Source: Candidatus Woesearchaeota archaeon
GTDB taxonomy: Archaea; Nanobdellota; Nanobdellia; SCGC-AAA011-G17; UBA489
Assembly (NCBI GenBank): GCA_964366415.1
Contig: CAYITG010000001.1
Span: forward strand, 11,649 to 75,648
Direction: 5' to 3'
Length of the DNA: 64,000 nucleotides
The notes below the pieces were generated by a model. It ran no database searches, was not told the DNA's origin, and saw only the letters and a program-made list of their open reading frames with translations. The position numbers were made by a program, and so were the translations under genes. Below are positions 38,276-53,275 of this stretch, piece by piece; position 1 is the stretch's first letter, and each line of letters starts with the position of its first letter.

Positions 38276-38424
38276 ATTTGTCAATTCTTGCTGTTGTACT
38301 AGTAATCCTGATTAAGTCCTTTCTGAAAGAGCAGGAGTTAATTTGGAGTTAGGAGAAAATAGGTGGTTGGATTTGATTGGGAAATCTTCCATCATATCAT
38401 AATAAATTTCATGTTTTTCTTTAG

Positions 38425-38862
38425 TTACATTTGCCCTTTATATTTTTGGTCAAAATCCACCATCCATTCAATACCAAATTTGTCTCGAAACATTCCAAAG
38501 TAAGAACCCCAAGGACTGTCGGCAATTGGCATTTCAATTTGTCCACCTGCTGAAAGTCCATTAAATAATTTGTCTGCTTCTTCTTTGCTTTCTGCACTTA
38601 TTGAAATTTTACTTCTGTTTTCGTTTTCGTTTACCCGTCCCATAATTTCTGGGACGTCGTTTGCCATCAAGATGTTTTTACCAATAGGCAAAGCAATGTG
38701 CATTATTTTATTTGCCTCATTTTCTGCGACTGGAAATTCAGGGCCTGATATGTCTTTGAAACGGATAATTTTTGCGAACTCTCCACCAAACACTGATTTG
38801 TAAAATGTAAATGCTTCTTCTGCATTTCCATTGAAGTTAATGTGAGGATTGATTGTTGCCAT
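38425..38862 (-). CDS. VOC/glyoxalase-fold protein, PhnB-like
   Basis: 145 aa containing INPHINFNGNAEEAFTFYKSVFGGE...MHIAL...SPWGSYFGMFRDKFGIEWMV. Confidence 0.75.
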   Translation of the reverse strand: MATINPHINFNGNAEEAFTFYKSVFGGEFAKIIRFKDISGPEFPVAENEANKIMHIALPIGKNILMANDVPEIMGRVNENENRSKISISAESKEEADKLFNGLSAGGQIEMPIADSPWGSYFGMFRDKFGIEWMVDFDQKYKGQM

Positions 38863-40415: not shown

Positions 40416-40895
40416 TTATTCTTTCTTTGCTTCCTTCTTTTCTTCTTTCTTTGGTTTAGTTTCAGCCTTTTGTTCTGCAGGTGGAGCGGCTGTAGTTTCT
40501 GCTTTTGCTTCCTCTTTTGGCTGAATACCTAACAATTCTGGAACTGATTTTGTTCCTGCTTTGGTGACTTTCAAATTAACTTGTGCTGTGGAAACTGAAA
40601 CAGTGTTTCCTGCTACTGTTTTACGTCTTCGAATACCTGGCTTTTTGATTTCACGTGCTCCTAATCCGCGAGACATCAATAATGATTTGCGAGCAGCGCC
40701 TTCAACATATCCTAACATAGGGAATCCAGAACCATCTGATCCTCCAGTGATTTGGAGTTCGTATCCTGTCAATCCTAATGCACTTCCAGGAACAGCTTCT
40801 CCTATCTTTTTTCCTGTAAAGAACTGCTCTTCTAAGGTCTTTTGATAGGTTTTTCCTGTTTTAGGATCGCTGATGACATAGCGTATTTCTGCCAT
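40416..40895 (-). CDS. rps6e: Ribosomal protein S6e (eS6) with a K/E/A-rich tail
   Basis: ISDPKTGKTYQKTLEE...LQITGGSDGSGFPM matches S6e. A palindromic TATA lies 23 nt upstream of the ATG. Confidence 0.9.
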   Translation of the reverse strand: MAEIRYVISDPKTGKTYQKTLEEQFFTGKKIGEAVPGSALGLTGYELQITGGSDGSGFPMLGYVEGAARKSLLMSRGLGAREIKKPGIRRRKTVAGNTVSVSTAQVNLKVTKAGTKSVPELLGIQPKEEAKAETTAAPPAEQKAETKPKKEEKKEAKKE

Positions 40896-40925: not shown

Positions 40926-40997
40926 GCTTTTTGGAGAATATTGCCTTGTCCTAAATAGTTTCTCAAAGAAAGGCTTAGTTGTGTAATATGATTCTTA

Positions 40998-41074
40998 GAA
41001 ACACTTCGGCTCGCATGGTGCAAGGTCGATTTGCCCAGTGTGTTTCCCTCCAATGCGTGCTCCGCAAGGAGCAC
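40998..41074. ncRNA. Candidate structured small RNA (GC-rich element in an AT-rich spacer); class unknown
   Basis: The 7-bp helix gaaacac (40998-41004) / gtgtttc (41040-41046) encloses further short pairings. A perfect 7-bp hairpin gtgctcc-GCAA-ggagcac (41057-41074, GNRA loop) follows, then a T-rich sequence. Confidence 0.3.
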
Positions 41075-41199
41075 TTTGAGTTAATAAAAATGTCTAAGAC
41101 TTAGATAAGGCAGGAGAATATATGTTCTTTAACATAAGAGAAATTAAGATGCAATCTTTTATATCCTTTTATAACTCCTTAGTGGTAAAAATAGAAAGG

Positions 41200-41208
41200 T
41201 TTATAAAT
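41200..41208 (+). promoter_or_regulatory. TATA box upstream of the aaRS operon
   Basis: tttataaat lies 57 nt upstream of the tyrS ATG. A second A/T-rich TATA-like run lies at about 41217-41232. Confidence 0.4.
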
Positions 41209-41264
41209 GAATATTCTTTTAAAAATTATAAGTCTTATTAAGGAAAATCTATTCGTAGTACAAC

Positions 41265-42473
41265 ATGACTCTTGAAGATCAGTTAATGGAAATTGCAAGG
41301 GGTACAGTGGGTATCCTCACAGAAGGTGAACTAATCAAAAAACTGAAGCTTAATAGATCTCTTAATATAAAATTTGGAGTTGATCCAACCGCCCCAGATA
41401 TCCATTTAGGCCATACTGTTCCCTTACAAAAGTTGAAGCAATTCCAGGATTTAGGACACAACGTTCAATTGATTATTGGGGATTATACTGCGGCGATAGG
41501 AGACCCTAGTGGAAGGAGTGAAACAAGACCTACATTAAGTAGAGAAGAAATAGAAGAGAATATGGGAACATATCAAAAACAAGTTTTTAAAGTTCTTGAC
41601 CCAAATAAAACGACGTTATTTTACAATAGTGCCTGGCTGAATCAATTTTCCGGAACAGATATGATTGGACTAGGCTCAAAATATACTGTTCAACAACTTC
41701 TGCGAAGAAGAGACTTTGGAGAAAGAATGAAACAGAATAAACCTTTATCGGTTACTGAATTGTTATATCCGCTTCTTGTCGGTTATGATTCGGTGCATCT
41801 TCATAGCGATATAGAAATTGGTGGTACAGATCAATTATTTAATTTTATGGCTAGTAGAGAAATACAAAAAGCATATGGCCAAGATCCAGAGGTCGTCATA
41901 ACTCTTCCATTGTTAGAAGGAATAGATGGAATAAAGAAAATGAGCAAAAGTCTTGGAAACGCAATTGCCGTTAATGATCATCCAAGCGATATGTATGGAA
42001 AAATAATGTCTATAGATGATAATCTTATGTTAAGGTACTATGAACTCTTATCTGAAACTCCTTTAGATGAACTCCAAATGATAAGAACAGACGTCGCATC
42101 AGGTAATGTAAATCCTATGGAATACAAACAAAGATTGGCAAAAGAATTAGTCTCTAAATATCATGGACAAGATTCTGCCGTATTAGCTGAAGATAGGTTT
42201 AACAGAATTCATAGACAAAAAACTATTCCTAGTCAATTAGAGGAAATAACAATAGTTTATTCGACAGAAGCTGATTTGTCAATTATTGGGATACTTAGAA
42301 AAATTGGAAGAGCAAAGTCTAACAACGAAGCCAGAAGACTCATAGAACAAAGAGGGGTGAGAGTGAACGACGATGTAATAACTGATTTTAGTTACATTCT
42401 TCCCCCAGAAAGTAATCAAATTATACAAATCGGAAAAAGATATTTCAGAAGATTGAACTGCGAAAAGGCTTAA
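41265..42473 (+). CDS. tyrS: Tyrosyl-tRNA synthetase, bacterial type (with S4-like C-terminal domain)
   Basis: 402 aa containing GVDPTAPDIHLGH (HIGH), IIGDYTAAIGDPSGRSETRP, KMSKSLGN and the C-terminal ARRLIEQRGVRVNDDVI. Confidence 0.9.
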   Translation: MTLEDQLMEIARGTVGILTEGELIKKLKLNRSLNIKFGVDPTAPDIHLGHTVPLQKLKQFQDLGHNVQLIIGDYTAAIGDPSGRSETRPTLSREEIEENMGTYQKQVFKVLDPNKTTLFYNSAWLNQFSGTDMIGLGSKYTVQQLLRRRDFGERMKQNKPLSVTELLYPLLVGYDSVHLHSDIEIGGTDQLFNFMASREIQKAYGQDPEVVITLPLLEGIDGIKKMSKSLGNAIAVNDHPSDMYGKIMSIDDNLMLRYYELLSETPLDELQMIRTDVASGNVNPMEYKQRLAKELVSKYHGQDSAVLAEDRFNRIHRQKTIPSQLEEITIVYSTEADLSIIGILRKIGRAKSNNEARRLIEQRGVRVNDDVITDFSYILPPESNQIIQIGKRYFRRLNCEKA

Positions 42474-42517
42474 CTTTTTTAGTATATCTTTATAAATAAG
42501 CGTTGTTTGCTGAGTTT

Positions 42518-43546
42518 ATGGCGGAAAACATAAAAGAAAGATTTAACTTAATAACAAGAAATTTACAAGAAGTTTTAGTAGAAACTGAACTCAAAGATTT
42601 GCTCAAGAAAAAAAATGAGATTTCTGTCTACTGGGGAACTATGCCAACAGGCAGTATCTCGGTAGCATATTTCTTTCCCATGTTAAAAATTGCTGACTTT
42701 TTGAAGGCAAATTTAAGAGTAAAAATATTAATTGCAGATTTGCATGCAGCATTAGATGGCGTCCCCTGGGAACTATTGGGAAAAAGAACGGAATATTACA
42801 AAAGAGCAATAATTGTTATATTGAAAACAATAGGGGTAGATACTAAAAAATTAGAATTTATTAAGGGTAGCGATATTCAATTAAATGATAAATATTTTCA
42901 TCACGTTCTAAGGTTAAGTACGATCTCTTCTATAAATGAATGTAAAAAAGCTTCTTCTGAAGTAATAAAAGCTAAAGAGAACCCTTTACTCGCCGGATTA
43001 ATTTACCCAATTATGCAAGCATTAGATGAAGAATATCTCAACGTCGATATACAATTTGCTGGACTCGACCAAAGAAAGATTATGGTATTTGCAAGAGAAA
43101 ACCTTCCAAAAATCGGTTTTCGGCCGAGAATAGAATTAATGACGCCCATGATAAGAGGATTAGTTGGAGAGAAAATGAGTTCTAGTGTAGAAGCGACAAA
43201 AATTGATTTATTAGATAATGAAGAAACAATATTCAAGAAAATAAATAAGGCGGAGTGTGTAGAAGGCGATCCAAACAATGGATTATTGGCTATGCTAAAG
43301 TACTTTATTATGCCTTTTAAACAAGATAATGATAATAAATTTGTTGTTGAAAGGTCTGATAAATTTGGTGGAAATGTCGTGTATGCAAATTATGAACAAA
43401 TAGAAAAAGATTTTTTAGCAAAGAAATTACACCCACTCGATCTAAAAAAAGCTTTAGCTAACGAGATGAGTAAGCTTCTTGCAAATTTTAGGGAAGACAA
43501 TCAACTAAAAGAGTTACATAAGGAAGCTTATCCCATTAAACGCTAG
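42518..43546 (+). CDS. Archaeal-type TyrRS homologue with a degenerate HIGH motif
   Basis: 342 aa, colinear by eye with archaeal TyrRS. It retains ILIADLHAALD, YPIMQALD, GLDQRKI and GEKMSSS. The HIGH position reads PTGSISVAY. Confidence 0.8.
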   Translation: MAENIKERFNLITRNLQEVLVETELKDLLKKKNEISVYWGTMPTGSISVAYFFPMLKIADFLKANLRVKILIADLHAALDGVPWELLGKRTEYYKRAIIVILKTIGVDTKKLEFIKGSDIQLNDKYFHHVLRLSTISSINECKKASSEVIKAKENPLLAGLIYPIMQALDEEYLNVDIQFAGLDQRKIMVFARENLPKIGFRPRIELMTPMIRGLVGEKMSSSVEATKIDLLDNEETIFKKINKAECVEGDPNNGLLAMLKYFIMPFKQDNDNKFVVERSDKFGGNVVYANYEQIEKDFLAKKLHPLDLKKALANEMSKLLANFREDNQLKELHKEAYPIKR

Positions 43547-43553
43547 TCATAAA

Positions 43554-44627
43554 ATGATGAATAAAAAGAGGAGAAAAAATGTTGTTTTTGATAGATTATA
43601 TTATGACTCTATCATGAAAGAATTTGGTTATAACCCTCTAGCATTTGAAAAGATTAATTTTTCTTTAGGGAATCTAAAAAAAGATGACCTCCAAAGGATG
43701 TGGTTATGCCACCATGATGGAAACACTTTTGCTAAAGACCTAGAAAAAGGGAAAAAAGTAATTGTGAGTACTGGGTTTGGCCTCTCTGGAGAACCACATA
43801 TTGGGACATTATCCCAGATTTTAAGATCAATAGCGTTACAAAAAGCAGGTATTCCGGTTCAAATTGTTTTAGGTGATTTAGATGCTTACAATGGAAAAAT
43901 GACACCCTTAAAAAAAACACGAGAATTGGCAAAAAAATATAAAAAATTTATTACTTCTTTAGGTTTTAATCCAAAACAAGGATCTATTCTCAGAGCACAG
44001 TATGATGAACTAGATGTTTTAAGGACCTCATATGTGATAGGTCACTTTATGGATGATGATATATTTAATGAAGCTGAAGAGGATCTTCATTTCTTTTATC
44101 ACAAAAGAGGAAAGGTAGATAAAGAAATGAGTTACAGAAGAAAATTATCTTTGAATCTTATGATTGCAGATTTTATACACTTACATTTTAAACATCAATA
44201 TAAAAATGTTTTAGTCATGTTGGGAATGGACGAACATCAATACGTTAGATTCGGTAAAGAGATAGTTAAGAGAATGAAAGAATGCAAGCAATTTGAAAAT
44301 TTTGATATGACTCTCTCTGCAATATATTCTCCTATGATAAAAGGATTCTTTAATTATCCTAAAATGTCAAAAAGTTTTCCGAAGTCAAGCATTAGTGTAA
44401 ACATGAAACCACAAGAAATAAGGAATAAAATAATCTATGGTGAAGGAAAATATGACAAACCAGAAAATAATGTTGTTTATCAAATGATGACTTCTGTAAG
44501 TTTTTACACGGCGAAGGAAATTAAAGAACTATACGATTTATGCTTAGATGGCGGGCAGAGTTGGAAAAATGCAAAGAAAGAATATGCGGAGGTATTAATA
44601 AAAATCTGTTCAAAATGGAAAAATTAA
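43554..44627 (+). CDS. Class-Ic aaRS, archaeal/eukaryal TrpRS-like
   Basis: 357 aa containing STGFGLSGEPHIGTL (HIGH as HIGT), VLGDLDAYNGK, GMDEHQY and KMSKSFP. A ~65-aa N-terminal extension resembles that of archaeal TrpRS. Confidence 0.7.
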   Translation: MMNKKRRKNVVFDRLYYDSIMKEFGYNPLAFEKINFSLGNLKKDDLQRMWLCHHDGNTFAKDLEKGKKVIVSTGFGLSGEPHIGTLSQILRSIALQKAGIPVQIVLGDLDAYNGKMTPLKKTRELAKKYKKFITSLGFNPKQGSILRAQYDELDVLRTSYVIGHFMDDDIFNEAEEDLHFFYHKRGKVDKEMSYRRKLSLNLMIADFIHLHFKHQYKNVLVMLGMDEHQYVRFGKEIVKRMKECKQFENFDMTLSAIYSPMIKGFFNYPKMSKSFPKSSISVNMKPQEIRNKIIYGEGKYDKPENNVVYQMMTSVSFYTAKEIKELYDLCLDGGQSWKNAKKEYAEVLIKICSKWKN

Positions 44628-45736
44628 AAATTGCTAAAAAGAACGCAGTCAGTGAAGTTTTATATAGACTTAATGTGCAATCAAAAATAGATTTAAGATT
44701 GCTAGAAGAAGCTTTTGACTCTATTTTGTCTAACTATAAACGATCTATAAGAGATATTCAACTTGGAGCTATCCTTACCGGAATAATGGCGAGGGGTCCT
44801 ACAACTGATGAAATCGTAACTTTATTGAAATCTGTTTTTAAATTAGATAAGTTTAACCCAAGAAATAAATATAAAATAAATATGCCTAAAAATGAGCTAT
44901 TAGTCGGAGCAATAGGCAGTGGAAAAAAAGGAGTAAAAACAATGAATATTTCAACTCCTGCACTCTTGACTGCTGCAAGTGCTGGAGCTTTTACAGCAAA
45001 AGTTGCTTCTTCCTCTACAAGTTCTTTGACAGGTTCTGCTGATTTTTTGCGAGAAGTTGGGATGAACCTTAATATCCCCATTAAAGAAATGGAAAAAGTG
45101 ATTACTAAAACAGGATTTGGTGCATTTACTATAGAAAATCTTTTACCTAAATTTGATTTAGTCTATGCAAAGAGATTTTATGCGCCACATGCCTTAAGTT
45201 TTGGTTTAGCAGCTTTAGCAAGTCCAATTAGGTATGATAGCTTTTTGTATGGATTGGCTCACCCAAACATAACCCTCTCAGTGAATGTATTAAAGAAATT
45301 TGGAATTAGAAATGCAATGGTAGTTTCTACCAGTAATGACGGAATACATTATTTAGATGAAATGGGTGTTTATGGAATAACTAAAATTAAAGGAATACGA
45401 AATGGCAAAATTGGGTATACTAAAGAGTTTAATCCTTTAATTGAACTAAACTTACCGAAGTATTCTCCAAGAGATATTTGTGAAGGGAAGAATAAAAATG
45501 AGAATATAACGATGGTTACAGATGTTTTGAGGGGCAAAGGTGGAAAAGCAAGAGAAGATATAATTTGTATTAATGCTGGTACAGTTCTTTATCTAGCGAA
45601 AAAAGCAAAAGATCTAAAGGAAGGTTATAAAATTTCTAAAGATATTATAAAACATGGGCTTCCCTTTAAGAAGTTATTAGAAGTAGTTAGAGAAAGCGGC
45701 GGAGATGAAAAAAGAATAAAGAGATTTGTGAAATGA
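44615..45736 (+). CDS. TrpD-like glycosyl/phosphoribosyl transferase family 3 protein (divergent)
   Basis: 373 aa containing GAILTGIMARGPTTDEI, GSGKKGVKTMNISTPA and SSLTGSADFLREVGMNL. The internal ATG overlaps the previous gene by 13 nt. Confidence 0.65.
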   Translation: MEKLKIAKKNAVSEVLYRLNVQSKIDLRLLEEAFDSILSNYKRSIRDIQLGAILTGIMARGPTTDEIVTLLKSVFKLDKFNPRNKYKINMPKNELLVGAIGSGKKGVKTMNISTPALLTAASAGAFTAKVASSSTSSLTGSADFLREVGMNLNIPIKEMEKVITKTGFGAFTIENLLPKFDLVYAKRFYAPHALSFGLAALASPIRYDSFLYGLAHPNITLSVNVLKKFGIRNAMVVSTSNDGIHYLDEMGVYGITKIKGIRNGKIGYTKEFNPLIELNLPKYSPRDICEGKNKNENITMVTDVLRGKGGKAREDIICINAGTVLYLAKKAKDLKEGYKISKDIIKHGLPFKKLLEVVRESGGDEKRIKRFVK

Positions 45737-46731
45737 AAGCGGTAATTATTTCTAAAAAAGGGCATATAGAATACAAAGAAGTCCAAGAACCAAAAATAAA
45801 GAAAGGTTATGTGAAAGTAAAAGTAAAGGCAGCAGGACTTTGTGGAAGTGATACTCAAAAAATATTCTCTGACAAAAAATCATTAAGATTGGTGAAAACA
45901 AGTATATGGGGCCATGAAATTTCCGGCGTAATTTATGAAACTGGAAAAGAAGTTAAAAATTTTGTGAAAGGTGATAAAGTCATTGTAAATTCTTTGATTA
46001 GAAATGATGAAGATTCTGATATTACTAAAATTAGATCTCTCGGTAAGGACCTCCCGGGAGGATTTGCTGATTACATCGTAGTTCCCTACAAAAATTTAAG
46101 AAAAATCCCTTCAAATATAGGATTTGAAGAAGCCATATTAACAGATAGCATAGCTGTAGCATTACATGGATACCACCTCTCTAATTCTCCCACCAATAAA
46201 AATATACTTATCCTTGGGGATGGTTCTCTTGGTTTGATTACTGGCTTGCTTTGCTTAGAATTTAACAATAAAGTGACCCTCATTGGGAAAAATATCAGGA
46301 ACTTAAAGCTAGCTTCAGATTTTGGAATTACTGCTTTAAGGAGTGATCAAATTAAAGATTTGCAGAAAAATTATGATATCATTTTTGAGATTGTTGGAAG
46401 GAAGCAAGATAACACTTTAGACTGTTCTATACAATGTATCAAACCAAATGGTCAAATAACTGTTCTAGGGGTATTTGAAAAGGGTTATTATGGAAATATT
46501 CTCTTAAGAGAGCTGTTCTATAAGGAAGGAAAAATTGTTGGCTCAAACTCTTATGGGTTTTTTAATGGAAAGAGTGAATTTGATATGGCTATAAACTTCC
46601 TAAAAAAAATGAAACTGCAATTTTCGCAGTTGATAACGCATGTACTCCCTCTTAAAGAGTTTAAGACTGGTTTAGATTTAATAAAAAACAAAAAAAGCTC
46701 TAAGGCCATAAAGATTGTGTTTAAACCATGA
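45733..46731 (+). CDS. Zn-dependent medium-chain dehydrogenase/reductase (threonine/sorbitol dehydrogenase-like)
   Basis: 332 aa containing AAGLCGSD, WGHEISGVI and the Rossmann motif ILGDGSLGL. It has an ATGA overlap with the upstream gene. Confidence 0.8.
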   Translation: MKAVIISKKGHIEYKEVQEPKIKKGYVKVKVKAAGLCGSDTQKIFSDKKSLRLVKTSIWGHEISGVIYETGKEVKNFVKGDKVIVNSLIRNDEDSDITKIRSLGKDLPGGFADYIVVPYKNLRKIPSNIGFEEAILTDSIAVALHGYHLSNSPTNKNILILGDGSLGLITGLLCLEFNNKVTLIGKNIRNLKLASDFGITALRSDQIKDLQKNYDIIFEIVGRKQDNTLDCSIQCIKPNGQITVLGVFEKGYYGNILLRELFYKEGKIVGSNSYGFFNGKSEFDMAINFLKKMKLQFSQLITHVLPLKEFKTGLDLIKNKKSSKAIKIVFKP

Positions 46732-47897
46732 AAATAAACATCACGTTGATCGGACCGAGAGCGATCGGTAAAACAAGCATAGCAAAAAAATTATCAAAAA
46801 AGTATTACCTAGACTATATTGAGTTTGATACAATTTTAAATAAACACCTAATCAAGGACGGGGGTATGGTTAAAGCATTAAGGAATAAGTTGGCAACGGA
46901 TGTTTTAAACAATAAGGCCCCAAAAGACATATTACAAATATTAAAAAAAAATAATATCCTTTTGGAATTAGGATCTGGGGCTATTAGTTCTGATTACATT
47001 AAGACTAATAAAAAGAACCTGAATACTATCTTGAAAAATTCCCTGCTTATACCCTTGCTTTACTCAGATGATGTTTATGAAAGTGCAAAGGCGCTATACG
47101 AAAGAGACAAAAATAGATTGAATCTTGACGAAGATTTTCCCAAAGTAATTAAAAGATATAGAAATTTTATTAGCGTTATTAAAACTTATAGCTTTAAACC
47201 AATATACTGTAAGAACAAAACTATAAATGAAATATGTAATGAGATCATTACTGTATGCGGTCTTAATTATTCAACGATTAAATGTTTTATATTTGATCAA
47301 GATGGAACCTTTTACCCTGAAAACAGCAAACTTACAAATGAGTTAAGGAATAAAACAAAAAAGTGGTTAATGATTAAACTTTCTTTAAATAGGGGGGAAG
47401 TTGAGCGTCTTTACAAAAAACTCCAAAAAAAGTATCCAAATATTTTAGATGGACTCCTTTCTTTAGGCCTGACTATAAGAGATTATCACAAAAATGTTTT
47501 TGATATGATCGATCCGTCAAACTATCTATCGCGAGATGAGAAACTAAGTTCTATCCTGAAAAAACTAAAGGGGGATAAATATGTGGTGACATTTGCCTCG
47601 AAGAAATATTCAAAACTCTTACAACAAATATTAGGAATAAATAATCTCATTAAAAAAACATATTCTTTAATTGATTTTTCCCCAAAAAGGTCTAAACTGC
47701 AAGTATATGAGCATATAAGGAAGAGTAATAAAATGAAAAGAAAAGATATCATGGTTATAGGCAACAATCTAGAAGTAGATATAAAACCTGCATTACATAA
47801 AGGCTATAAAACAATTTTGATTGGGACACCAAAAAAAGAAACAAGAACAAAATCAATCCAGGATATACATTATTTAATGTCTAATAAAATTAATTAA
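46728..47897 (+). CDS. Fusion protein: shikimate-kinase-like P-loop domain + HAD phosphatase domain
   Basis: 389 aa. The N-terminus has LIGPRAIGKTSIAKKL. The C-terminus has HAD motif I FIFDQDGTF and motif IV VIGNNLEVDI. It has an ATGA overlap with the upstream gene. Confidence 0.6.
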   Translation: MKINITLIGPRAIGKTSIAKKLSKKYYLDYIEFDTILNKHLIKDGGMVKALRNKLATDVLNNKAPKDILQILKKNNILLELGSGAISSDYIKTNKKNLNTILKNSLLIPLLYSDDVYESAKALYERDKNRLNLDEDFPKVIKRYRNFISVIKTYSFKPIYCKNKTINEICNEIITVCGLNYSTIKCFIFDQDGTFYPENSKLTNELRNKTKKWLMIKLSLNRGEVERLYKKLQKKYPNILDGLLSLGLTIRDYHKNVFDMIDPSNYLSRDEKLSSILKKLKGDKYVVTFASKKYSKLLQQILGINNLIKKTYSLIDFSPKRSKLQVYEHIRKSNKMKRKDIMVIGNNLEVDIKPALHKGYKTILIGTPKKETRTKSIQDIHYLMSNKIN

Positions 47898-48036
47898 GAA
47901 CCTGGAACGCCATTATTCATACATTAAAACCCTGGGCTGAAATATCCCTCTAGTTCATGCACTGCCGTAATTTCTATCGTAAATCTATTCTTTGTCATTT
48001 GTTGTTTCTTCACTTCTTGTTGATATATTTTCTAAT

Positions 48037-48720
48037 TTATACTTTTTGCAGATTAAGCTCTCTTTTCTCTACATCAAGTATGCCCATTTTTTTCTCGTAA
48101 AAAGTTGTTTCTTCTCGTGCTGTAAATTCTGGTACAGCTATGGAGAATACATTAACTAGAATTGCCTTTTCTAAACCCTCAATATTCATATGTGATTTTG
48201 TTTGTGCGGTAACTAACAGCCCTACGTCAGAGACAGTCTTTGAATGTATTTCTCCACGAACTAAAAGAACATTCTGATATTCTCTCTTGAGAGTATTTAA
48301 ATATAAATAATCTGGGAAAGTAAGAGCTGTCCAGAGAACAGACGGATGGCGTAGAGTTCCATTTTCAGATAATGCTTCCATTAACACCTTCGATGATTCC
48401 TTTGTTAGTTCGTTCGTTCTCCACCTTGTTATAAGAAGGATTCCTGATTTTTTATCAATTGCCTTATTTGGTTGATGATATGCTTTAAAGTATGATTCTA
48501 ATTCTTTAACAACAATAGGTGACCATCTACGTATAGAAAAATCTAATTGTTTAGGGTCTATTTCGTATTCACCTCTTAGTGAGACAATATCTCCACAATT
48601 AACATAGTCTTTTTCCTGGTATACTAAGAAACCATTGTCTCCATCTTGTCTTAAACAAATTTTTGCCTTTTCTACTATCTGTGGTTCGCATAATAACCTT
48701 TCTAACTTTTTATTTTGCAT
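48037..48720 (-). CDS. Hypothetical protein
   Basis: 227-aa AT-rich ORF ending 1 nt from the aIF5B stop side. No motif was recognised. Confidence 0.5.
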   Translation of the reverse strand: MQNKKLERLLCEPQIVEKAKICLRQDGDNGFLVYQEKDYVNCGDIVSLRGEYEIDPKQLDFSIRRWSPIVVKELESYFKAYHQPNKAIDKKSGILLITRWRTNELTKESSKVLMEALSENGTLRHPSVLWTALTFPDYLYLNTLKREYQNVLLVRGEIHSKTVSDVGLLVTAQTKSHMNIEGLEKAILVNVFSIAVPEFTAREETTFYEKKMGILDVEKRELNLQKV

Positions 48721-48721
48721 T

Positions 48722-50527
48722 TTACACGCCCCACATGGGGTTTTGTTTTCTTTTTATTTCCACAATTTCTTTAATGACATCAATTTCGTCTGCCTTCAAA
48801 TATTTTTTGAATCCTTTTAATCTTTTGAATTGTTCTTCCGTCAAATCAGCATAGAGAATATCGCCTTCTTTTAGTTGACGACCAACCGTGACATTGGGAA
48901 TGGCAACTGCTATTTCCTTATCTTTTGCCGCAGATGCAACATTCTTTCCTTGTTCTTGAATTGTTTTCACAACAGACAGCTTTGAACCATCTTTCTTGAT
49001 GATAGGCATTTCAGCTGCAATAATCCCTCCAAGCACTTGCGCACCGACGACTGCCGGATTGGATTGACGGAACACAAATCCTTCCATGACTTTTATCTTG
49101 AACGGATGAACGATTGCTTCTGCTTGCTTTGCTTGTTCTTTTTTCAATATACTTTCTTTCCACACATTGTAATCTTCGATGATTTTGTATATCACATCAT
49201 GGGTGATTTGCTTGATATCGGATGCTTCTTCTACTGATTCAATATTAAACCCAAGAATTACTTTGTAAATAGGATCTTTTTCAACACGCGCATCAGCAAT
49301 ATCTTTCTTTGAGATGTTTCCAATTGACAATTTTTTAATGGTCACTCCGGCTTCCTTTAGTAGTGTTGCGAGTGCTTCTAAACTCCCAATGGTATCTGCC
49401 TTTGCAATCACGCCGTCTTTTTCTGTTTCCAAGAGGATGGAATGAACTTCTTTTTGTAATTGCTGACGTATGACTGTTTCATTCGTATTTGCCACTAATA
49501 ATGGCATGCCTCCAATAGCATCTTTCATTCTAGGAGCAATGAGCTTGATACCAGCAGCAGCGTGCACTTCTCTTTGTGATATTAATTTTTTTGTTTTGAC
49601 ATCTAATTCGAATAACGCGCGCACCTTTGTTTCAATAGGTTCTCCTACTGTTGCAATCATAATTTTATCATTGACTTTTAACAAACCATCATACAATACG
49701 ACATCTAATGTTGTTCCTAACTTGGCATCTTCACTTACTTCTAAGATTGTTGCTTTGCCTGGACCTTCTCCATTGATATTTAACTTTTGCTCAAGAAAGC
49801 GTTGCGCTAAACCTGTCATGACCATCAAGAGTTCTGGTAATCCTTCTGTTGTTTTTGCACTGACAGGAACAATGGTAATTTGTTTGGTGAAATCATCTAC
49901 GCGATCATACCTTTCAGCATTCAGATTCTCTTCTGACAACCGTGCCACTAAGGCATAGACTGCTTTGTCCAGCTCTTCTTGCACACGTGCTGATTGGTTT
50001 GCAATGTTTGCAAGCAACTTTTCTTTGGGATTTGCCTGCCATCCCGGGATGAGATCAACCTTGTTTAATGCAATGACAAAAGGAGTTTTGTATTGTTTTA
50101 AGATAGCAAGACATTCTTTGGTTTGTTCTTTGATCCCTTCTTTTGCATCAACAACAAGAATGGCAATATCAGCAAGATTACCGCCTATTTTACGCATGTT
50201 ATTGAACGCTGCGTGACCAGGGCTATCAAGAAACAGTAATCCTGGAATGGTTAACTGCGATTTCATGTTTTCAATGAGAGAACCGCAATATCGCTTAATG
50301 ACCTCAAGAGGAACAGGATATGAACGAATAGATTGCGTGATTAATCCTGGTTCTGCCTTGGTGATCGAGATCCCTCTAATTTTTTCGAGAATACTTGATT
50401 TTCCATGGTCTATGTGACCCATAAAGATCACAATGGGCTGACGTGTTGGCATTTTTCCTTTAAGCTTATAGGTTCTTTTAAACTCTTTGGTAACTCTTCT
50501 TCGAGTATTTATTGTATTATTTTCCAA
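48722..50527 (-). CDS. infB: Translation initiation factor aIF5B (IF-2)
   Basis: 601 aa. It has the G domain (GHIDHGKSS, DSPGH, NKVD) plus domains II-IV. Confidence 0.95.
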   Translation of the reverse strand: MENNTINTRRRVTKEFKRTYKLKGKMPTRQPIVIFMGHIDHGKSSILEKIRGISITKAEPGLITQSIRSYPVPLEVIKRYCGSLIENMKSQLTIPGLLFLDSPGHAAFNNMRKIGGNLADIAILVVDAKEGIKEQTKECLAILKQYKTPFVIALNKVDLIPGWQANPKEKLLANIANQSARVQEELDKAVYALVARLSEENLNAERYDRVDDFTKQITIVPVSAKTTEGLPELLMVMTGLAQRFLEQKLNINGEGPGKATILEVSEDAKLGTTLDVVLYDGLLKVNDKIMIATVGEPIETKVRALFELDVKTKKLISQREVHAAAGIKLIAPRMKDAIGGMPLLVANTNETVIRQQLQKEVHSILLETEKDGVIAKADTIGSLEALATLLKEAGVTIKKLSIGNISKKDIADARVEKDPIYKVILGFNIESVEEASDIKQITHDVIYKIIEDYNVWKESILKKEQAKQAEAIVHPFKIKVMEGFVFRQSNPAVVGAQVLGGIIAAEMPIIKKDGSKLSVVKTIQEQGKNVASAAKDKEIAVAIPNVTVGRQLKEGDILYADLTEEQFKRLKGFKKYLKADEIDVIKEIVEIKRKQNPMWGV

Positions 50528-51604: not shown

Positions 51605-53275
51605 ATGACCTACAAAAGGACTGTTGTCATAGCGGACGGAGAACCAGAACAACGTGATCTTTCTTCACGACTCTCTTTAGCATTTCGTGGCCATCATGAA
51701 CACCACCTTATTGATTTTAAAATGCCTTCTAACGTGGAAGAACTTTCTCCACTTCTCCATCAACGCCCCGATGTTGTTATTTTAGGATATCACCCAGATC
51801 TTACTTCTCAGTATGCTCAAATTTTGAATGGAACAGATCGAAATCACCTTGTCTTAACTTTCCTTTCTCAGCATGAATCTCATGCACGTCAACTTGCCGC
51901 AGAATTAGGAATTTACCATACACTCCCAAAGTCTCCAGTCTTGGAAGAAAGGACAGAAGCGTTCACCCAAGATTTGGTCAAATCAGTTTATGACTGTCTT
52001 ACCTCTTATCGTACTTTTTTTAAAGATGGTTCAGAAGTTGTAGGACGCGTTATGAGTTTGGGTATTGATGGCACAGGAGGCATTGGTGGTGCTGTTGCTG
52101 ATCTTGCCTTAGGAGAAGCAGCTATACGAAAAATTTATCTTTATAATGGAAAAAATCGTGCAAAAGCAGAACTTCTCGCACGAGAGCTTCGTGATAAGGC
52201 TCTTCGCAGTAGCGTTGCCAATGCCTGTGAGATTTACGTTGTTGATGACCTTGAAGAGATGAAATATACCTGTGGCATTCGTGTTCACACTCATGGGGAT
52301 CATCAAACAGAGCTTAATCTTGCCATAAGACAAAGAAAAACCCGCAAAGATTTCTTACGATTCAATCTCGCAACAGCATTGCAACATAGTGAAGAATTGA
52401 CTGGCGCAGGAGGCATTGATATTATTGTTACTAACCCTGTTGCTCCTCTTACTGCTGCGTATTATGCAGGTACTTATCGTGCTCCAAACTCTTATGATCC
52501 TGTTCAACGTTTCTGTGTTCCTGAAGGTTTGTGTATGAGTGACAAAAAGAGAGGACTTCAAGTTCTTCAATCTGTTGCTAAGGATTTAGGTCTGATTGAA
52601 AATGGTGACAGCCTTGTTGTTGAACCTGACCTTAATTTTAATGTTGTCGGGCCGCGCGAAAATTTCGTGATTGTTAATCCTATGATTCAGGGGTTGACTT
52701 TTGATCAATTACAAGAAGTCGCACAGAAGAGGGGTCTTAATCCAAATATATATAGCGAGACATCTTTAACAGCGAAGATACGTGATGGTATACATCGCTG
52801 GGGGATTCGTCAAATTATCAAAGGCGGTGATTATTTTCCTGCAACTTACGCACGTCAACTCATGGATCATATTCGTTCCATTAATGGTATTCCCGATCTT
52901 AGAGGACAAGAAATTAAACACCCTGCAGTTGTCTTAGTAGACCTTTTTAGAGATTCTGATTTTGAGGAATCAGCACATCGCCTTGTCACCTACCGCGATC
53001 ATGGAGGCAGAAAAGAAAAAACTGCAACCTTGCGTGAACTCTATGACCATCTTTTTCCCAACGGCGTTATCACTTCTTGGGAGATTAGCCATAAACACGG
53101 CCTTCCTGTTAATGATCGTATTCCCCTTCACACGCACAAAAAACGACGAAAACTTCTTGAAGCTCTTTTAGAAGATCGTCGTATGCTTATGAACGAACTC
53201 GATCGTGTTGATGAAAATCTTAATGCACAAGCACATAAAGTCAAAAATTTTTTTACTGAAAAACTTTCTTGTTAA
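51605..53275 (+). CDS. Multidomain protein: receiver-like N-terminus + LDH/MDH-like Rossmann domain lacking the catalytic His context
   Basis: 556 aa containing VVIADGEPEQ...PDVVILGYHPDL, then GIDGTGGIGGAVADLAL and IDIIVTNPVAPLT. Where LDH/MDH has G(E/D)HGD it reads GPRENF. Confidence 0.55.
   Translation: MTYKRTVVIADGEPEQRDLSSRLSLAFRGHHEHHLIDFKMPSNVEELSPLLHQRPDVVILGYHPDLTSQYAQILNGTDRNHLVLTFLSQHESHARQLAAELGIYHTLPKSPVLEERTEAFTQDLVKSVYDCLTSYRTFFKDGSEVVGRVMSLGIDGTGGIGGAVADLALGEAAIRKIYLYNGKNRAKAELLARELRDKALRSSVANACEIYVVDDLEEMKYTCGIRVHTHGDHQTELNLAIRQRKTRKDFLRFNLATALQHSEELTGAGGIDIIVTNPVAPLTAAYYAGTYRAPNSYDPVQRFCVPEGLCMSDKKRGLQVLQSVAKDLGLIENGDSLVVEPDLNFNVVGPRENFVIVNPMIQGLTFDQLQEVAQKRGLNPNIYSETSLTAKIRDGIHRWGIRQIIKGGDYFPATYARQLMDHIRSINGIPDLRGQEIKHPAVVLVDLFRDSDFEESAHRLVTYRDHGGRKEKTATLRELYDHLFPNGVITSWEISHKHGLPVNDRIPLHTHKKRRKLLEALLEDRRMLMNELDRVDENLNAQAHKVKNFFTEKLSC

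What the first reader, a model, noticed from the sequence alone, without database searches (positions are those of the whole stretch)
41265..48720. AT-rich one-strand operon of three class-Ic aaRS genes plus TrpD-like, Zn-dehydrogenase and kinase-HAD genes, wedged between core translation genes
**Seen – layout.** Six plus-strand ORFs (41265-47897) are packed with 7-44 nt spacers or overlaps: a 13-nt overlap at 44615 and ATGA-type overlaps at 45733 and 46728. They sit between rps6e/aIF2-gamma on the left and aIF5B on the right. A seventh, minus-strand ORF of unknown function (48037-48720) with similar composition abuts aIF5B.

**Seen – composition.** My hand counts on a few 60-nt samples came out mostly lower in G+C inside the block than in the flanks. 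The codon pattern also changes: Arg is almost always AGA/AGG with heavy AAA/AAT/ATA use inside, against frequent CGT/CGC outside.

**Products read from motifs.**
1. Bacterial-type TyrRS with intact HIGH (HLGH), KMSKS and an S4-like C-terminus.
2. Archaeal-type TyrRS homologue with a degenerate HIGH.
3. Archaeal/eukaryal-type TrpRS-like enzyme (HIGT, KMSKS).
4. TrpD-like family-3 phosphoribosyl/glycosyl transferase.
5. Zn-type medium-chain dehydrogenase.
6. Shikimate-kinase-like P-loop domain fused to a HAD phosphatase.

**Inference.** Five of the six recognisable products (all but the Zn-dehydrogenase) have an aromatic-amino-acid flavour, and TyrRS is duplicated across domain-of-life types. 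That is not what an ordinary housekeeping aaRS locus looks like. Three candidate explanations:
- a horizontally acquired operon for an aminoacyl-AMP/aminoacyl-tRNA-dependent aromatic or nucleoside-like product;
- an aaRS-inhibitor resistance/biosynthesis set;
- displaced housekeeping aaRS genes riding on an acquired segment.

I cannot separate these from sequence alone. No integrase, transposase or flanking direct repeats were seen.
Basis: partly seen in the sequence, partly recalled or inferred. Interest (0 to 1): 0.8.

Follow-up and report, generated by a model that had tools for sequence, protein, structure and literature searches.

The report
Mobile tyrosyl-tRNA-synthetase-linked biosynthetic gene cassette
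A 7.8-kb block of foreign DNA sits in the middle of a conserved translation-factor operon of a tiny groundwater archaeon. It carries a gene cassette that also occurs in other archaea, ultra-small bacteria and Bacillus plasmids, and that probably makes a tyrosine-related toxic small molecule together with its own protection genes.

Summary
Six tightly packed plus-strand genes (41265-47897) and one orphan minus-strand gene (48037-48720) form the lowest-GC stretch of the window. They use 90% AGA/AGG for Arg, against 25% elsewhere (p = 2e-35).

A syntenic relative has aIF5B, rpS6e and aIF2-gamma directly adjacent. Window ~40,935-48,712 is therefore an insertion.

The block is one copy of an apparently undescribed cassette found in about 60 non-redundant loci: Woesearchaeota, Nanoarchaeia, Heimdall- and Thorarchaeota, CPR bacteria and Bacillus cereus-group plasmids. 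Its core has three parts:
- a discrete new class-Ic synthetase paralog (not a TrpRS);
- a TrpD-like transferase in which GSGKKG replaces GTGGD;
- a Zn-dehydrogenase.

Phosphatase, kinase, HIT, HD, radical-SAM, methyltransferase and MFS genes come and go. A TyrRS, never a TrpRS, is linked in 19 of 21 loci. The linked bacterial-type TyrRSs carry changes at conserved active-site positions, for example Gln to Val in gene 1. Gene 2's "degenerate HIGH" is normal for Woesearchaeal TyrRS.

Best reading (about 0.45): a mobile cluster for an aminoacyl-ribosyl antimetabolite aimed at TyrRS, with target-copy and HIT self-protection. The product and its activity are untested.

The parts
40416..40895 (-). 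rpS6e: native left flank. In relatives it lies 44 nt downstream of aIF5B.
   Evidence: PF01092. L106/L107 show aIF5B, rpS6e and aIF2-gamma adjacent. tblastx colinearity breaks at window 40934 and 48713.
40935..41187 (.). Left junction DNA. It is homologous neither to the empty-site relative nor to other cassettes. It contains a GC-rich hairpin, GTGCTCC-GCAA-GGAGCAC, at 41057-41074.
   Evidence: No Rfam match. Folding z-scores are only -1.3 and -1.7.
41188..41264 (+). Upstream leader shared at DNA level with the nearest cassette (L022). It includes TTTATAAA at 41200-41207, 58 nt before the g1 ATG; reading this as an archaeal TATA box is an inference.
   Evidence: DNA homology to L022 starts at query position 293, which is window 41188. 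Sequence read.
41265..42473 (+). g1: bacterial-type (TyrZ/T. thermophilus-like) TyrRS with an S4 C-terminal domain. HLGH and KMSKS are intact. The universally conserved Tyr-binding Gln is replaced by Val (YPLLVGYDS).
   Evidence: TIGR00234 356 bits. Best solved relative 6bqy, 385 bits. Gln to Val in 16 of 16 archaeal-host cassette copies, while all solved TyrRS aligned here have Gln.
42518..43546 (+). g2: eukaryote-like archaeal TyrRS of the standard Woesearchaeota type, with SVAY in place of HIGH/HVAY, KMSSS, and the YP..Q..D residues intact.
   Evidence: NF006330 287 bits. Human cytoplasmic TyrRS 341 bits. All 40 relatives inspected have S[IVF]AY or a close variant. The closest relatives, at 85-86% identity, are stand-alone genes.
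43554..44627 (+). g3: member of a discrete new class-Ic synthetase paralog family and the signature gene of the cassette. PHxGT and KMSKS are invariant. The predicted fold is a full-length archaeal/eukaryal TrpRS-like fold that includes the C-terminal helical domain.
   Evidence: Below all NCBIfam cut-offs. 317 homologs across domains at 45-82% identity. Invariant motifs. AF2 pLDDT 85, TM 0.72 to 3a04 at 15-22% identity. Only 265 clusters among 1.84e9 representatives.
44615..45736 (+). g4: TrpD-like family-3 phosphoribosyl/glycosyl transferase of a distinct subfamily. GTGGD is replaced by an invariant GSGKKG and KHGN is lost. NIST, SS..GSxD and DE are retained.
   Evidence: Lies directly downstream of the paralog in 49 of 52 non-redundant loci. 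Fused to the paralog in P0447, P0466 and P0440.
45733..46731 (+). g5: Zn-dependent medium-chain dehydrogenase. The catalytic Zn ligands (GLCGSD, GHE) are present. There is no structural-Zn Cys cluster. The nucleotide motif is GDGxxG.
   Evidence: Present in 37 of 42 non-redundant loci.
46728..47897 (+). g6: P-loop kinase (residues 1-180) fused to a HAD phosphatase (residues 181-389, pyrimidine-5'-nucleotidase-like, with DxDGT present).
   Evidence: The HAD is a frequent accessory gene. The kinase occurs as a separate gene in L015.
48037..48720 (-). g7: orphan ORF inside the inserted DNA, lying 1 nt downstream of aIF5B on the same strand. Function unknown. It is not part of the conserved cassette.
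   Evidence: No Pfam, NCBIfam, PADLOC or PHROGs hit. No homolog in any fetched locus. Singleton cluster. AF2 pLDDT 30. GC 0.336, 67% AGR.
48722..50527 (-). aIF5B: native right flank.

Best explanation
**Shown.**
- Window ~40,935-48,712 is horizontally acquired DNA. It splits the conserved aIF5B-rpS6e-aIF2-gamma gene string of a Woesearchaeota-like archaeon.
- g1-g6 are one copy of a mobile, cross-domain cassette. Its invariant core is a new class-Ic synthetase paralog, then a TrpD-like transferase, then a Zn-dehydrogenase.
- The core is nearly always linked to a TyrRS.
- It is variably decorated with phosphatases (HAD, HD), a kinase, a HIT hydrolase, radical-SAM enzymes, a TylF-type O-methyltransferase, an aldehyde dehydrogenase, an NHL beta-propeller and, in Bacillus, an MFS transporter.

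**Inferred.** The cassette is a small biosynthetic cluster that works in these steps:
1. The TrpD-like enzyme joins a phosphoribosyl-type donor to a non-anthranilate acceptor.
2. The dehydrogenase and the phosphatase (and the kinase where present) remodel and dephosphorylate the sugar part.
3. The synthetase paralog uses ATP to activate an aromatic amino acid, probably tyrosine or a close analogue. It esterifies or amidates that amino acid onto the sugar product, in the way MshC ligates cysteine to a sugar amine.
4. The result is an aminoacyl-ribosyl (aminoacyl-nucleoside-like) antimetabolite that mimics Tyr-AMP or tyrosine and hits TyrRS.
5. The producer protects itself in three ways: an extra TyrRS with an altered active site (g1); in archaeal hosts a host-compatible TyrRS carried in the cassette (g2); or a HIT hydrolase that cleaves adenylate-like molecules.
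For: **Insertion.**
- Relatives L106/L107 are colinear with window 29.7-59.6 kb but have aIF5B and rpS6e 44 nt apart.
- The GC and Arg-codon shifts cover all six genes.

**Cassette conservation.**
- The same gene order is seen in B. thuringiensis plasmid pBMB172 between IS elements, in CPR Magasanikbacteria next to a Y1 transposase, and in Nanoarchaeia, Heimdall and Woesearchaeota.
- Eighty further metagenome loci show it as well.
- GT3 is adjacent in 49 of 52 loci, the MDR is present in 37 of 42, and a TyrRS in 19 of 21.

**Functional coupling.**
- Pairwise divergence of the paralog tracks that of GT3 (rho 0.79), HAD (0.81), TyrRS (0.67) and MDR (0.55).
- Rosetta-stone fusions exist: GT3+paralog and HAD+paralog, and HAD+TyrRS.

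**The paralog is built like an adenylating enzyme.** PHxGT and KMSKS are invariant in the 16 aligned family members.

**Self-resistance logic.**
- The linked synthetase always passes the TyrRS equivalog cut-offs and is never a TrpRS.
- It is of several unrelated TyrRS types: TyrZ-like, other bacterial types, canonical archaeal and eukaryote-like.
- It is a bacterial type inside archaea and is plasmid-borne in Bacillus.
- It carries substitutions at otherwise universal active-site positions: Gln to Val or Met, DPT to DVT, GGxDQ to IGxDQ, KMSKS to KQSKS.
- HIT and the archaeal-type TyrRS occupy the same slot and never co-occur, 0 of 18 loci.
- HIT hydrolases are a documented immunity mechanism against aminoacyl-nucleotide antibiotics (bioRxiv 10.1101/2020.03.04.977132, also held as PMC7157772).
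- Producer-encoded second aaRS copies are the documented immunity mechanism for albomycin, mupirocin and indolmycin (PMC9437257; PMC7916415).

**Cluster architecture.** A variable shell of tailoring-type genes surrounds a fixed core, which is the usual architecture of a biosynthetic cluster.
Against: - No product, activity or inhibition has been measured. Every chemical step is inferred.
- The paralog keeps its C-terminal helical (anticodon-binding-like) domain, and that domain is strongly conserved. tRNA-independent aaRS paralogs usually lose this domain, so a tRNA-linked role is not excluded.
- g2 is not a distinct 'resistant' lineage. Its closest relatives are stand-alone TyrRS genes and its tyrosine-binding residues are canonical.
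- The HAD-TyrRS fusions could mean that the TyrRS takes part in the chemistry rather than only giving immunity.
- No recurrent exporter was seen outside Bacillus.
- Two of 21 well-flanked loci have no TyrRS nearby.
- The hosts are mostly reduced-genome symbionts, in which antibiotic clusters are uncommon.
Confidence: 0.45

Rival explanations
1. Non-toxic metabolite pathway. The core makes an aminoacylated sugar or polyol metabolite with a physiological role, such as a low-molecular-weight cofactor or thiol analogue, a compatible solute, an envelope component or a signal. The logic is that of mycothiol synthesis: glycosyl transfer, phosphatase, then an aaRS-like ligase. TyrRS is linked for supply or co-regulation, not for immunity.
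For: - The enzyme logic matches the core and fusion data as in the best explanation.
- There is no exporter in most loci.
- The HAD-TyrRS fusion suggests an integrated role for the TyrRS.
- g2-type copies look like ordinary TyrRS.
Against: - It does not explain a bacterial-type TyrRS being retained in archaea.
- It does not explain why unrelated TyrRS types were recruited repeatedly.
- It does not explain the active-site substitutions.
- It does not explain the HIT/TyrRS slot exclusivity.
- It does not explain the patchy, IS-flanked, plasmid-borne distribution.
Confidence: 0.2
2. tRNA-directed system. The paralog is a real synthetase that loads a tRNA (tRNATyr or tRNATrp) with a non-standard amino acid made or modified by the TrpD-like, dehydrogenase and phosphatase enzymes. 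The purpose would be either tRNA-dependent biosynthesis or altered decoding. The extra TyrRS would keep normal Tyr-tRNA supplied.
For: - The predicted fold is a full-length TrpRS-like fold with a conserved C-terminal domain.
- The ATP motifs are intact.
- The layout of biosynthesis genes plus a synthetase recalls pylSBCD.
Against: - No tRNA gene lies in or next to the cassette in the window or in 40 loci scanned.
- One protein family at 50-65% identity would have to serve hosts with opposite tRNATyr and tRNATrp identity rules (PMC5370408).
- The partner enzymes do not resemble amino-acid biosynthesis enzymes.
Confidence: 0.1
3. Resistance or detoxification island only. The cassette does not make a compound. 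It protects against an environmental TyrRS inhibitor through a spare TyrRS, a HIT hydrolase, efflux and enzymatic modification.
For: - TyrRS, HIT and MFS are all classic resistance functions.
- In L102 a TyrRS gene on its own is a low-GC island next to a HIT gene.
Against: - The invariant and fused part is the paralog-GT3-MDR triad, not the TyrRS or HIT.
- A chain of three or four enzymes with variable tailoring genes is typical of synthesis, not of inactivation.
Confidence: 0.1
4. Anti-virus defence or toxin-antitoxin-like module. The paralog or its product shuts down translation on infection, and TyrRS or HIT acts as the antidote.
For: Some copies sit among toxin-antitoxin and defence-type genes: ParE and HicAB in L017, DUF2326 and MC6/7 in L015. 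The cassette is mobile and patchily distributed.
Against: - No PADLOC model matches.
- There is no nuclease or sensor component.
- The MFS transporter and tailoring enzymes fit secretion and biosynthesis better.
- It is not found on viral contigs or phages.
Confidence: 0.08
5. Ordinary housekeeping locus: the organism's TyrRS and TrpRS plus tryptophan/aromatic biosynthesis genes that happen to be AT-rich.
For: - g1 and g2 pass the TyrRS equivalog cut-offs.
- g2 is the standard Woesearchaeal TyrRS type.
- The closest relative has a TyrRS at this site.
Against: - There is an empty site in a syntenic relative.
- The codon shift has p = 2e-35.
- g3, g4, g5 and g6 fail all equivalog cut-offs.
- The same cluster sits on Bacillus plasmids and in CPR bacteria.
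Confidence: 0.02

Closest known systems
Antibiotic clusters that carry a self-immunity aaRS (mupirocin/IleRS mupM, albomycin/SerRS, indolmycin/TrpRS, agrocin 84/LeuRS, borrelidin/ThrRS)
   Same: An extra, divergent copy of the target synthetase sits inside a horizontally mobile biosynthetic cluster. The three criteria of target-directed genome mining are met: an extra copy, co-localisation and signs of transfer.
   Different: - The target would be TyrRS. No producer cluster with an immunity TyrRS turned up in eight literature searches.
- The biosynthetic enzymes are unrelated to those clusters.
- The hosts include DPANN and Asgard archaea and CPR bacteria.
- Archaeal versions carry two TyrRS genes of different domain types.
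MshC (mycothiol cysteine ligase) and the MshA / MshA2 phosphatase / MshC logic
   Same: A class-I aaRS paralog with intact ATP motifs works together with a glycosyl-transfer step and a phosphatase step. In MshC the paralog ligates an amino acid to a sugar amine without tRNA.
   Different: - There is no sequence relationship: MshC is CysRS-like (class Ia), this family is class Ic.
- The transferase here is TrpD-like (family 3), not GT4.
- The paralog keeps its C-terminal domain.
- The chemistry is untested.
Canonical archaeal/eukaryal TrpRS and TyrRS (class Ic)
   Same: The paralog has the same overall fold (TM 0.6-0.7), a HIGH-like motif and a KMSKS motif. Its TG.G.S motif resembles TrpRS and its DLxAY motif resembles TyrRS.
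   Different: - Identity is only 15-22%.
- It scores below all family cut-offs.
- GxDQ has become GxDEH.
- The specificity positions are not conserved.
- Family-specific invariant N-terminal (WLCH) and C-terminal (C..W) motifs are present.
- It forms a discrete cluster of about 265 representatives.
Anthranilate phosphoribosyltransferase TrpD
   Same: g4 aligns over its whole length to solved TrpD structures (116 bits to 9ucw). It shares the NxST, SS..GSAD and DE motifs that hold PRPP and Mg.
   Different: - The PRPP loop GTGGD is an invariant GSGKKG.
- The anthranilate-site KHGN is lost.
- It scores below the TIGR01245 cut-off.
- It is never found with other trp genes.
HIT-family immunity to peptide-nucleotide antibiotics (MccH-type)
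   Same: A small HIT protein with an intact HxHxHxx motif is encoded next to genes for a presumed aminoacyl-nucleotide-like toxin.
   Different: The cassette HITs are generic Hint-like proteins (about 40% identical to a non-cassette neighbour). They are present in only about a quarter to a third of loci, and their substrate is unknown.
TrpRS-A / ORF1 loci of CPR and DPANN (Mukai et al. 2017, PMC5370408)
   Same: Extra class-Ic synthetase genes are exchanged between DPANN archaea and CPR bacteria in groundwater.
   Different: Those loci carry a tRNATrp(A73) gene and the unrelated ORF1. They lack the TrpD-like, dehydrogenase and TyrRS partners. They are a different family.

Membership tests
Tryptophanyl-tRNA synthetase (g3) | Scores above a curated TrpRS equivalog cut-off | tested here: not met
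   Best scores are NF008925 84 bits (cut-off 451) and TIGR00233 72 bits (cut-off 176.75).
Tryptophanyl-tRNA synthetase (g3) | Class-I ATP motifs HIGH and KMSKS | tested here: met
   PHxGT and KMSKS are invariant in the 16 aligned family members.
Tryptophanyl-tRNA synthetase (g3) | Rossmann catalytic domain plus a helical anticodon-binding domain | tested here: met
   AF2 model with pLDDT 85; full-length match to 3a04 and human TrpRS, TM 0.66-0.72.
Tryptophanyl-tRNA synthetase (g3) | Charges tRNATrp with tryptophan | not testable with these tools
   The constant genomic partner is TyrRS, never TrpRS or tRNATrp.
Bacterial tyrosyl-tRNA synthetase (g1) | Above the TIGR00234 cut-off, with HIGH, KMSKS and an S4-like C-terminal domain | tested here: met
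   356 bits against a cut-off of 113.8; HLGH, KMSKS and PF01479 present.
Bacterial tyrosyl-tRNA synthetase (g1) | Conserved tyrosine-binding Gln of the YPxxQxYD motif (Q173 in the B. stearothermophilus enzyme; residue numbering from my own knowledge) | tested here: not met
   g1 has YPLLVGYDS. Val is present in 16 of 16 archaeal-host cassette copies, and all solved TyrRS aligned here have Gln.
Archaeal/eukaryal tyrosyl-tRNA synthetase (g2) | Above the NF006330 cut-off, with KMSSS and the YP..Q..D tyrosine site | tested here: met
   287 bits against a cut-off of 220; residues align with human TyrRS.
Archaeal/eukaryal tyrosyl-tRNA synthetase (g2) | First His of the HIGH motif | tested here: not met
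   g2 has SVAY. The same S-x-A-Y is present in all 40 Woesearchaeota/Nanoarchaeota TyrRS inspected, including stand-alone genes, so it is lineage-typical.
Anthranilate phosphoribosyltransferase TrpD (g4) | Above the TIGR01245 cut-off, with GTGGD and KHGN motifs | tested here: not met
   162.7 bits against a cut-off of 199.05. GSGKKG is invariant in 56 family members and KHGN is lost.
Anthranilate phosphoribosyltransferase TrpD (g4) | Family-3 fold with NxST and DE metal/phosphate motifs | tested here: met
   Full-length alignment to 9ucw and other TrpD structures; NIST and DE are conserved.
Biosynthetic cluster with a self-resistance target gene | An extra copy of an essential target gene | tested here: inconclusive
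   There are two TyrRS genes in the window block. The copy is plasmid-borne in Bacillus and is a bacterial type in archaea. The rest of the window organism's genome could not be inventoried.
Biosynthetic cluster with a self-resistance target gene | The target gene is co-localised with biosynthetic genes across many loci | tested here: met
   A TyrRS lies within -3/+5.5 kb in 19 of 21 non-redundant well-flanked loci.
Biosynthetic cluster with a self-resistance target gene | Signs of horizontal transfer of the target copy | tested here: met
   Empty site, codon shift, and IS or plasmid context.
Biosynthetic cluster with a self-resistance target gene | The product inhibits the target, and the linked copy is resistant | not testable with these tools
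   Only indirect evidence: the active-site substitutions.
Pyrrolysine-type code-expansion cassette | A dedicated tRNA gene lies next to the synthetase | tested here: not met
   There is no tRNA in the window block and none inside any cassette in 40 loci scanned.
Known anti-phage defence systems | Match to a PADLOC model | tested here: not met
   Only a 14-bit BrxF-like P-loop hit for g6.

The most novel reading that the evidence does not exclude
The paralog may be a working synthetase of a new specificity. It would load a tRNA, or a tRNA-like acceptor, with a ribosylated or otherwise modified aromatic amino acid made by its TrpD-like, dehydrogenase and phosphatase partners. The cassette would then be a portable, cross-domain module that rewires tyrosine decoding or performs tRNA-dependent chemistry, and the atypical TyrRS copies would keep normal translation insulated.
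Probability: 0.08. Interest if true: 0.95.

Novelty: new variant of a known kind. Interest (0 to 1): 0.72.

Why it matters
- If the reading is right, this would be the first gene cluster linked to a natural TyrRS-directed antimetabolite.
- The cluster would define a new class-Ic synthetase paralog family and a new TrpD-like subfamily.
- It is unusual in being shared by Bacillus plasmids, CPR bacteria, and DPANN and Asgard archaea.
- It offers a tractable entry point: the six-gene Bacillus thuringiensis pBMB172 copy.
- Work on that copy could lead to a new aaRS inhibitor scaffold.
- The archaeal versions ask how synthetase-based immunity copes with domain-specific tRNA identity rules, because they carry both a bacterial-type and a host-type TyrRS.
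- A circulating TyrRS-directed toxin could also explain why TyrRS genes are exchanged so often among groundwater DPANN and CPR organisms.
- Even if the toxin idea fails, the cassette is a well-defined, conserved, unannotated pathway.

Tried and rejected
- **Dedicated tRNA / code expansion.** No tRNA in the block or in the cassettes of 40 loci.
- **T-box or other riboswitch to read the cognate amino acid.** No Rfam hit in four Bacillus copies or in window 38-52 kb. The whole window gives only tRNA-His.
- **Defence system.** No PADLOC model.
- **Viral origin.** No hit in the phage collection or on viral contigs, and no informative PHROGs match.
- **Flanking att-like repeats.** Only a 15-nt imperfect match at 41245 and 47981, with a third copy inside g1, so probably chance.
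- **Structured RNA in the left junction (40960-41095).** Folding z-scores of -1.3 and -1.7, not significant.
- **Sigma-70 promoter scan.** At or below the shuffle expectation, and not relevant to an archaeon.
- **g7 function.** No family, no homolog in any locus, a singleton cluster, and a useless single-sequence AF2 model with pLDDT 30.
- **Reading the paralog's amino-acid specificity from alignment.** The positions that would match the Tyr/Trp-binding Tyr, Gln and Asp are not conserved or cannot be placed reliably.
- **Identity with TrpRS-A/ORF1 of Mukai et al.** Rejected; the partners differ and a tRNA gene is present there.
- **Literature.** Eight searches found no description of this cassette or of a TyrRS self-resistance cluster.
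- **Inventory of other TyrRS/TrpRS genes in the genome.** Not possible.

Full report
**1.

- g1 41265-42473.
- g2 42518-43546 (an alternative TTG start at 42503).
- g3 43554-44627.
- g4 44615-45736, with a 13-nt overlap.
- g5 45733-46731 and g6 46728-47897, both with ATGA overlaps.
- g7 48037-48720 on the minus strand.

The block lies between rpS6e/aIF2-gamma and aIF5B. Its GC is 0.319 against 0.387 for the rest of the window, and it is the lowest of all 6.6-kb windows.

Arg is 86 AGR: 10 CGN inside and 194: 572 outside (odds ratio 25, p = 2e-35). Each of the six genes uses at least 80% AGR, and no other gene in the window exceeds 67%.

**2. What the genes are.**

- **g1** is a bacterial-type TyrRS: TIGR00234 356 bits, an S4 C-terminal domain, and 385 bits to solved TyrRS 6bqy.
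- **g2** is an archaeal/eukaryal-type TyrRS. It scores NF006330 287 bits and is closest to human cytoplasmic TyrRS at 341 bits. The human HIGH motif reads HVAY; g2 reads SVAY.
- All 40 relatives of g2 that I inspected, from Woesearchaeota, Pacearchaeota and Nanoarchaeota, have the same Ser. These include stand-alone genes annotated as the organism's tyrosine-tRNA ligase. The 'degenerate HIGH' is therefore a lineage trait, not a mark of a crippled paralog.
- **g3** fails every TrpRS and TyrRS cut-off. Its profile is about equally far from archaeal TyrRS and TrpRS.
- The g3 model (pLDDT 85) is a full-length TrpRS-like fold at 15-22% identity.
- A profile search of 1.84 billion cluster representatives returns only 265 hits. 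The family is thus sharply separate from canonical class-Ic enzymes.
- PHxGT and KMSKS are invariant in the 16 aligned g3 family members, as are family-specific N- and C-terminal motifs.
- **g4** aligns over its whole length with TrpD. It has an invariant GSGKKG where TrpD has GTGGD, and it has lost KHGN.
- **g5** is a Zn medium-chain dehydrogenase with the catalytic Zn ligands only.
- **g6** is a P-loop kinase fused to an intact HAD phosphatase.
- **g7** matches nothing.

**3. The block is an insertion.**

Relatives L106/L107, whose aIF5B is 73% identical, are colinear with window 29.7-59.6 kb. There, aIF5B, rpS6e and aIF2-gamma follow each other directly with a 44-nt spacer. The colinearity breaks at window 40,934 and 48,713. 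So about 7.8 kb, comprising g1-g6 and g7, has been inserted into a conserved translation gene string and has cut rpS6e-aIF2-gamma off from aIF5B.

The closest relative, L108 (aIF5B 81% identical), has at the same site a TyrRS of native composition. It has an HMGY motif, uses CGN codons, and is 43% identical to g2. A native TyrRS may therefore have been displaced here. I could not inventory the rest of the genome to check.

There is no transposase, integrase or credible flanking repeat in the window copy.

**4. It is one copy of a widespread mobile cassette.**

Homologs of g3 at 45-82% identity occur in the following groups:
- Woesearchaeota and Nanoarchaeia;
- Heimdallarchaeaceae and Thorarchaeota;
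- CPR Magasanikbacteria;
- the Bacillus cereus group.

The contexts show mobility:
- In B. thuringiensis plasmid pBMB172 the order is paralog, GT3, MDR, HAD, MFS, TyrRS. It lies between a recombinase/IS6 element and an IS4 element, and everything except the TyrRS, the MFS transporter and the generically named dehydrogenase and HAD genes is annotated as hypothetical.
- In Magasanikbacteria a Y1 transposase precedes paralog, GT3, MDR, TyrRS, HIT.
- Archaeal copies show TyrRS, then HIT or an archaeal TyrRS, then paralog, GT3, MDR, HAD.

I then surveyed about 100 loci and collapsed them to 62 clusters at 95% identity:
- GT3 lies directly downstream of the paralog in 49 of 52 clusters.
- The MDR follows in 37 of 42.
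- A TyrRS lies within a few kb in 19 of 21.

The flanks of other copies share no synteny with the window's flanks.

**5. The genes work together.**

Pairwise divergence of the paralog correlates with that of GT3 (rho 0.79), HAD (0.81), TyrRS (0.67) and MDR (0.55).

Natural fusions join GT3 to the paralog (P0447, P0466, P0440) and a Cof-type HAD to the paralog (P0370). They also join the HAD to the TyrRS in L050, L056, L062 and L064.

Around the fixed triad there is a variable shell of genes:
- HD phosphohydrolase;
- a separate P-loop kinase;
- radical-SAM enzymes;
- an NHL beta-propeller between GT3 and MDR;
- a TylF-type O-methyltransferase;
- an aldehyde dehydrogenase;
- MFS, in Bacillus only.

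A constant core with changing tailoring enzymes is the usual architecture of a small-molecule biosynthetic cluster.

**6. The TyrRS link.**

Every class-Ic gene beside the paralog passes a TyrRS equivalog cut-off, and none is a TrpRS. These TyrRSs belong to several unrelated types: TyrZ-like, other bacterial types, canonical archaeal and eukaryote-like. TyrRS activity itself therefore seems to be what is selected for.

Archaeal-host cassettes keep a bacterial-type TyrRS. In the slot between it and the paralog they carry either a host-type TyrRS or a HIT gene, never both (0 of 18). Bacterial and archaeal tRNATyr have opposite identity elements (PMC5370408). That gives a reason why an archaeal host might need a host-type copy.

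The bacterial-type copies deviate at positions that are otherwise universal:
- g1 and all 15 other archaeal-host copies have Val in place of the tyrosine-binding Gln of YPxxQxYD.
- A second group has Met at that position.
- The CPR/Bacillus group has DVT for DPT, IGxDQ for GGxDQ, and KQSKS for KMSKS.

g2, by contrast, looks canonical. It is closer (85-86% amino-acid and 82% DNA identity) to stand-alone TyrRS genes, some from the same aquifer, than to TyrRS genes in sister cassettes (70-74%). In one such genome, L102, the TyrRS gene alone is a low-GC island next to a HIT gene. TyrRS genes are evidently exchanged often in this community.

**7. Interpretation.**

Shown:
- the block is an acquired, mobile, cross-domain cassette;
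- its members are functionally coupled;
- it has a strong and specific link to TyrRS.

Inferred (about 0.45): it is a cluster for an aminoacyl-ribosyl, nucleoside-like antimetabolite directed at TyrRS.
- The TrpD-like enzyme builds a ribosyl conjugate.
- The dehydrogenase, phosphatase and kinase remodel it.
- The paralog adds an aromatic amino acid with ATP, working like MshC in mycothiol synthesis.
- Extra TyrRS copies, HIT and, in Bacillus, MFS protect the producer.

There are precedents for both immunity mechanisms. A second aaRS copy protects producers of known aaRS inhibitors (PMC9437257; PMC7916415). HIT hydrolases protect against peptide-nucleotide antibiotics (bioRxiv 10.1101/2020.03.04.977132, also held as PMC7157772).

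Several points weigh against this reading:
- the paralog keeps a conserved anticodon-domain-like C-terminus;
- g2 is not a special resistant lineage;
- the HAD-TyrRS fusions hint at a direct role for TyrRS in the chemistry;
- no exporter recurs outside Bacillus;
- nothing has been measured.

The rivals are a non-toxic metabolite pathway (0.2), a tRNA-directed function (0.1), a resistance-only island (0.1), defence (0.08) and ordinary housekeeping (0.02, contradicted by the data).

**8. Novelty.**

Eight literature searches found no description of this cassette and no TyrRS self-resistance cluster. Public annotations call g3's homologs 'hypothetical protein' or 'tryptophanyl-tRNA synthetase'. 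The Bacillus thuringiensis copies of the paralog and of the GT3 gene are annotated 'hypothetical protein'.

The principle of a cluster carrying a spare target gene is known. The enzyme families, the TyrRS target and the cross-domain spread are new. I therefore class it as a new variant of a known kind.

Noticed in passing
window 34032-37742: The GyrA gene encodes 1236 aa with an intein (Intein_splicing plus LAGLIDADG domains). The syntenic relative L106 has an intein-free GyrA of 799 aa. The gene's raised AGR share (45%) may come from the intein.
   Followed up: partly
window 37745-38862, compared with L106 13505-14444: There is a second difference from the syntenic relative. Between aIF2-gamma and GyrA the window has a 176-aa unknown ORF and a glyoxalase-family gene, where L106 has NUDIX and OmdA genes.
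   Followed up: no
window 40416-40895 and 48722-50527: The insertion splits the aIF5B-rpS6e-aIF2-gamma string, which is contiguous in L106/L107. rpS6e and aIF2-gamma must now be transcribed from the about 290 nt of unassigned junction DNA (40,935-41,187). Orphan g7 now occupies the position just downstream of aIF5B.
   Followed up: partly
L108 6308-7312: The closest relative by aIF5B (81% identity) has at the same site a native-composition TyrRS. It is 334 aa long, has an HMGY motif and CGN Arg codons, is 43% identical to g2, and is convergent with aIF5B. This suggests that a resident TyrRS was displaced in the window organism.
   Followed up: partly
L102 9500-11100: A stand-alone g2-type TyrRS (85% identical to g2, also found in the same Hainich H52 samples) is by itself a low-GC, AGR-only island (0.31-0.36) in a 0.40-GC genome. 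It lies divergent from a native-composition HIT gene.
   Followed up: partly
L050 4160-6052; L056 3408-5303; L062 5420-7285; L064 3305-5164: HAD phosphatase and bacterial-type TyrRS are fused into single proteins of 620-630 aa in several CPR-type cassettes.
   Followed up: partly
P0447, P0466, P0440, P0370: There are fusion proteins of the TrpD-like transferase with the class-Ic paralog, and of a Cof-type HAD with the paralog. Other long forms (P0391 at 911 aa, P0428 at 885 aa) have N-terminal regions with no Pfam match.
   Followed up: partly
window 41245-41259 and 47981-47995: An imperfect 15-nt direct repeat, AAATCTATTC(G/T)T(A/T)GT, brackets g1-g6 almost exactly. A third copy lies inside g1 and the DNA is AT-rich, so this is probably chance.
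   Followed up: partly
window 41057-41074: A perfect 7-bp GC-rich hairpin with a GCAA loop, followed by TTTGAG, stands out in the AT-rich junction upstream of g1. It has no Rfam match and is not conserved in other cassettes.
   Followed up: partly
L027 5592-6536; L035 6298-7245; L038 8469-9419; L052 13255-14253: A roughly 315-aa protein with weak NHL beta-propeller signatures sits between the TrpD-like gene and the dehydrogenase in several cassettes, including the window's nearest relatives. It is absent from the window copy.
   Followed up: partly
window 53272-54000: The TrmB-family regulator gene is a mild compositional outlier (GC 0.354, 64% AGR Arg codons), although it is syntenic with L106 and L108.
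   Followed up: no
L084 1440-1659; L092 9276-9455 and 15844-15929: Some cassettes lie directly downstream of tRNA genes: Met and Asp in L084, Cys and Ser in L092. In L092 a tRNA-Tyr and an archaeal TyrRS lie about 3 kb beyond the dehydrogenase. This could reflect integration at tRNA loci.
   Followed up: no
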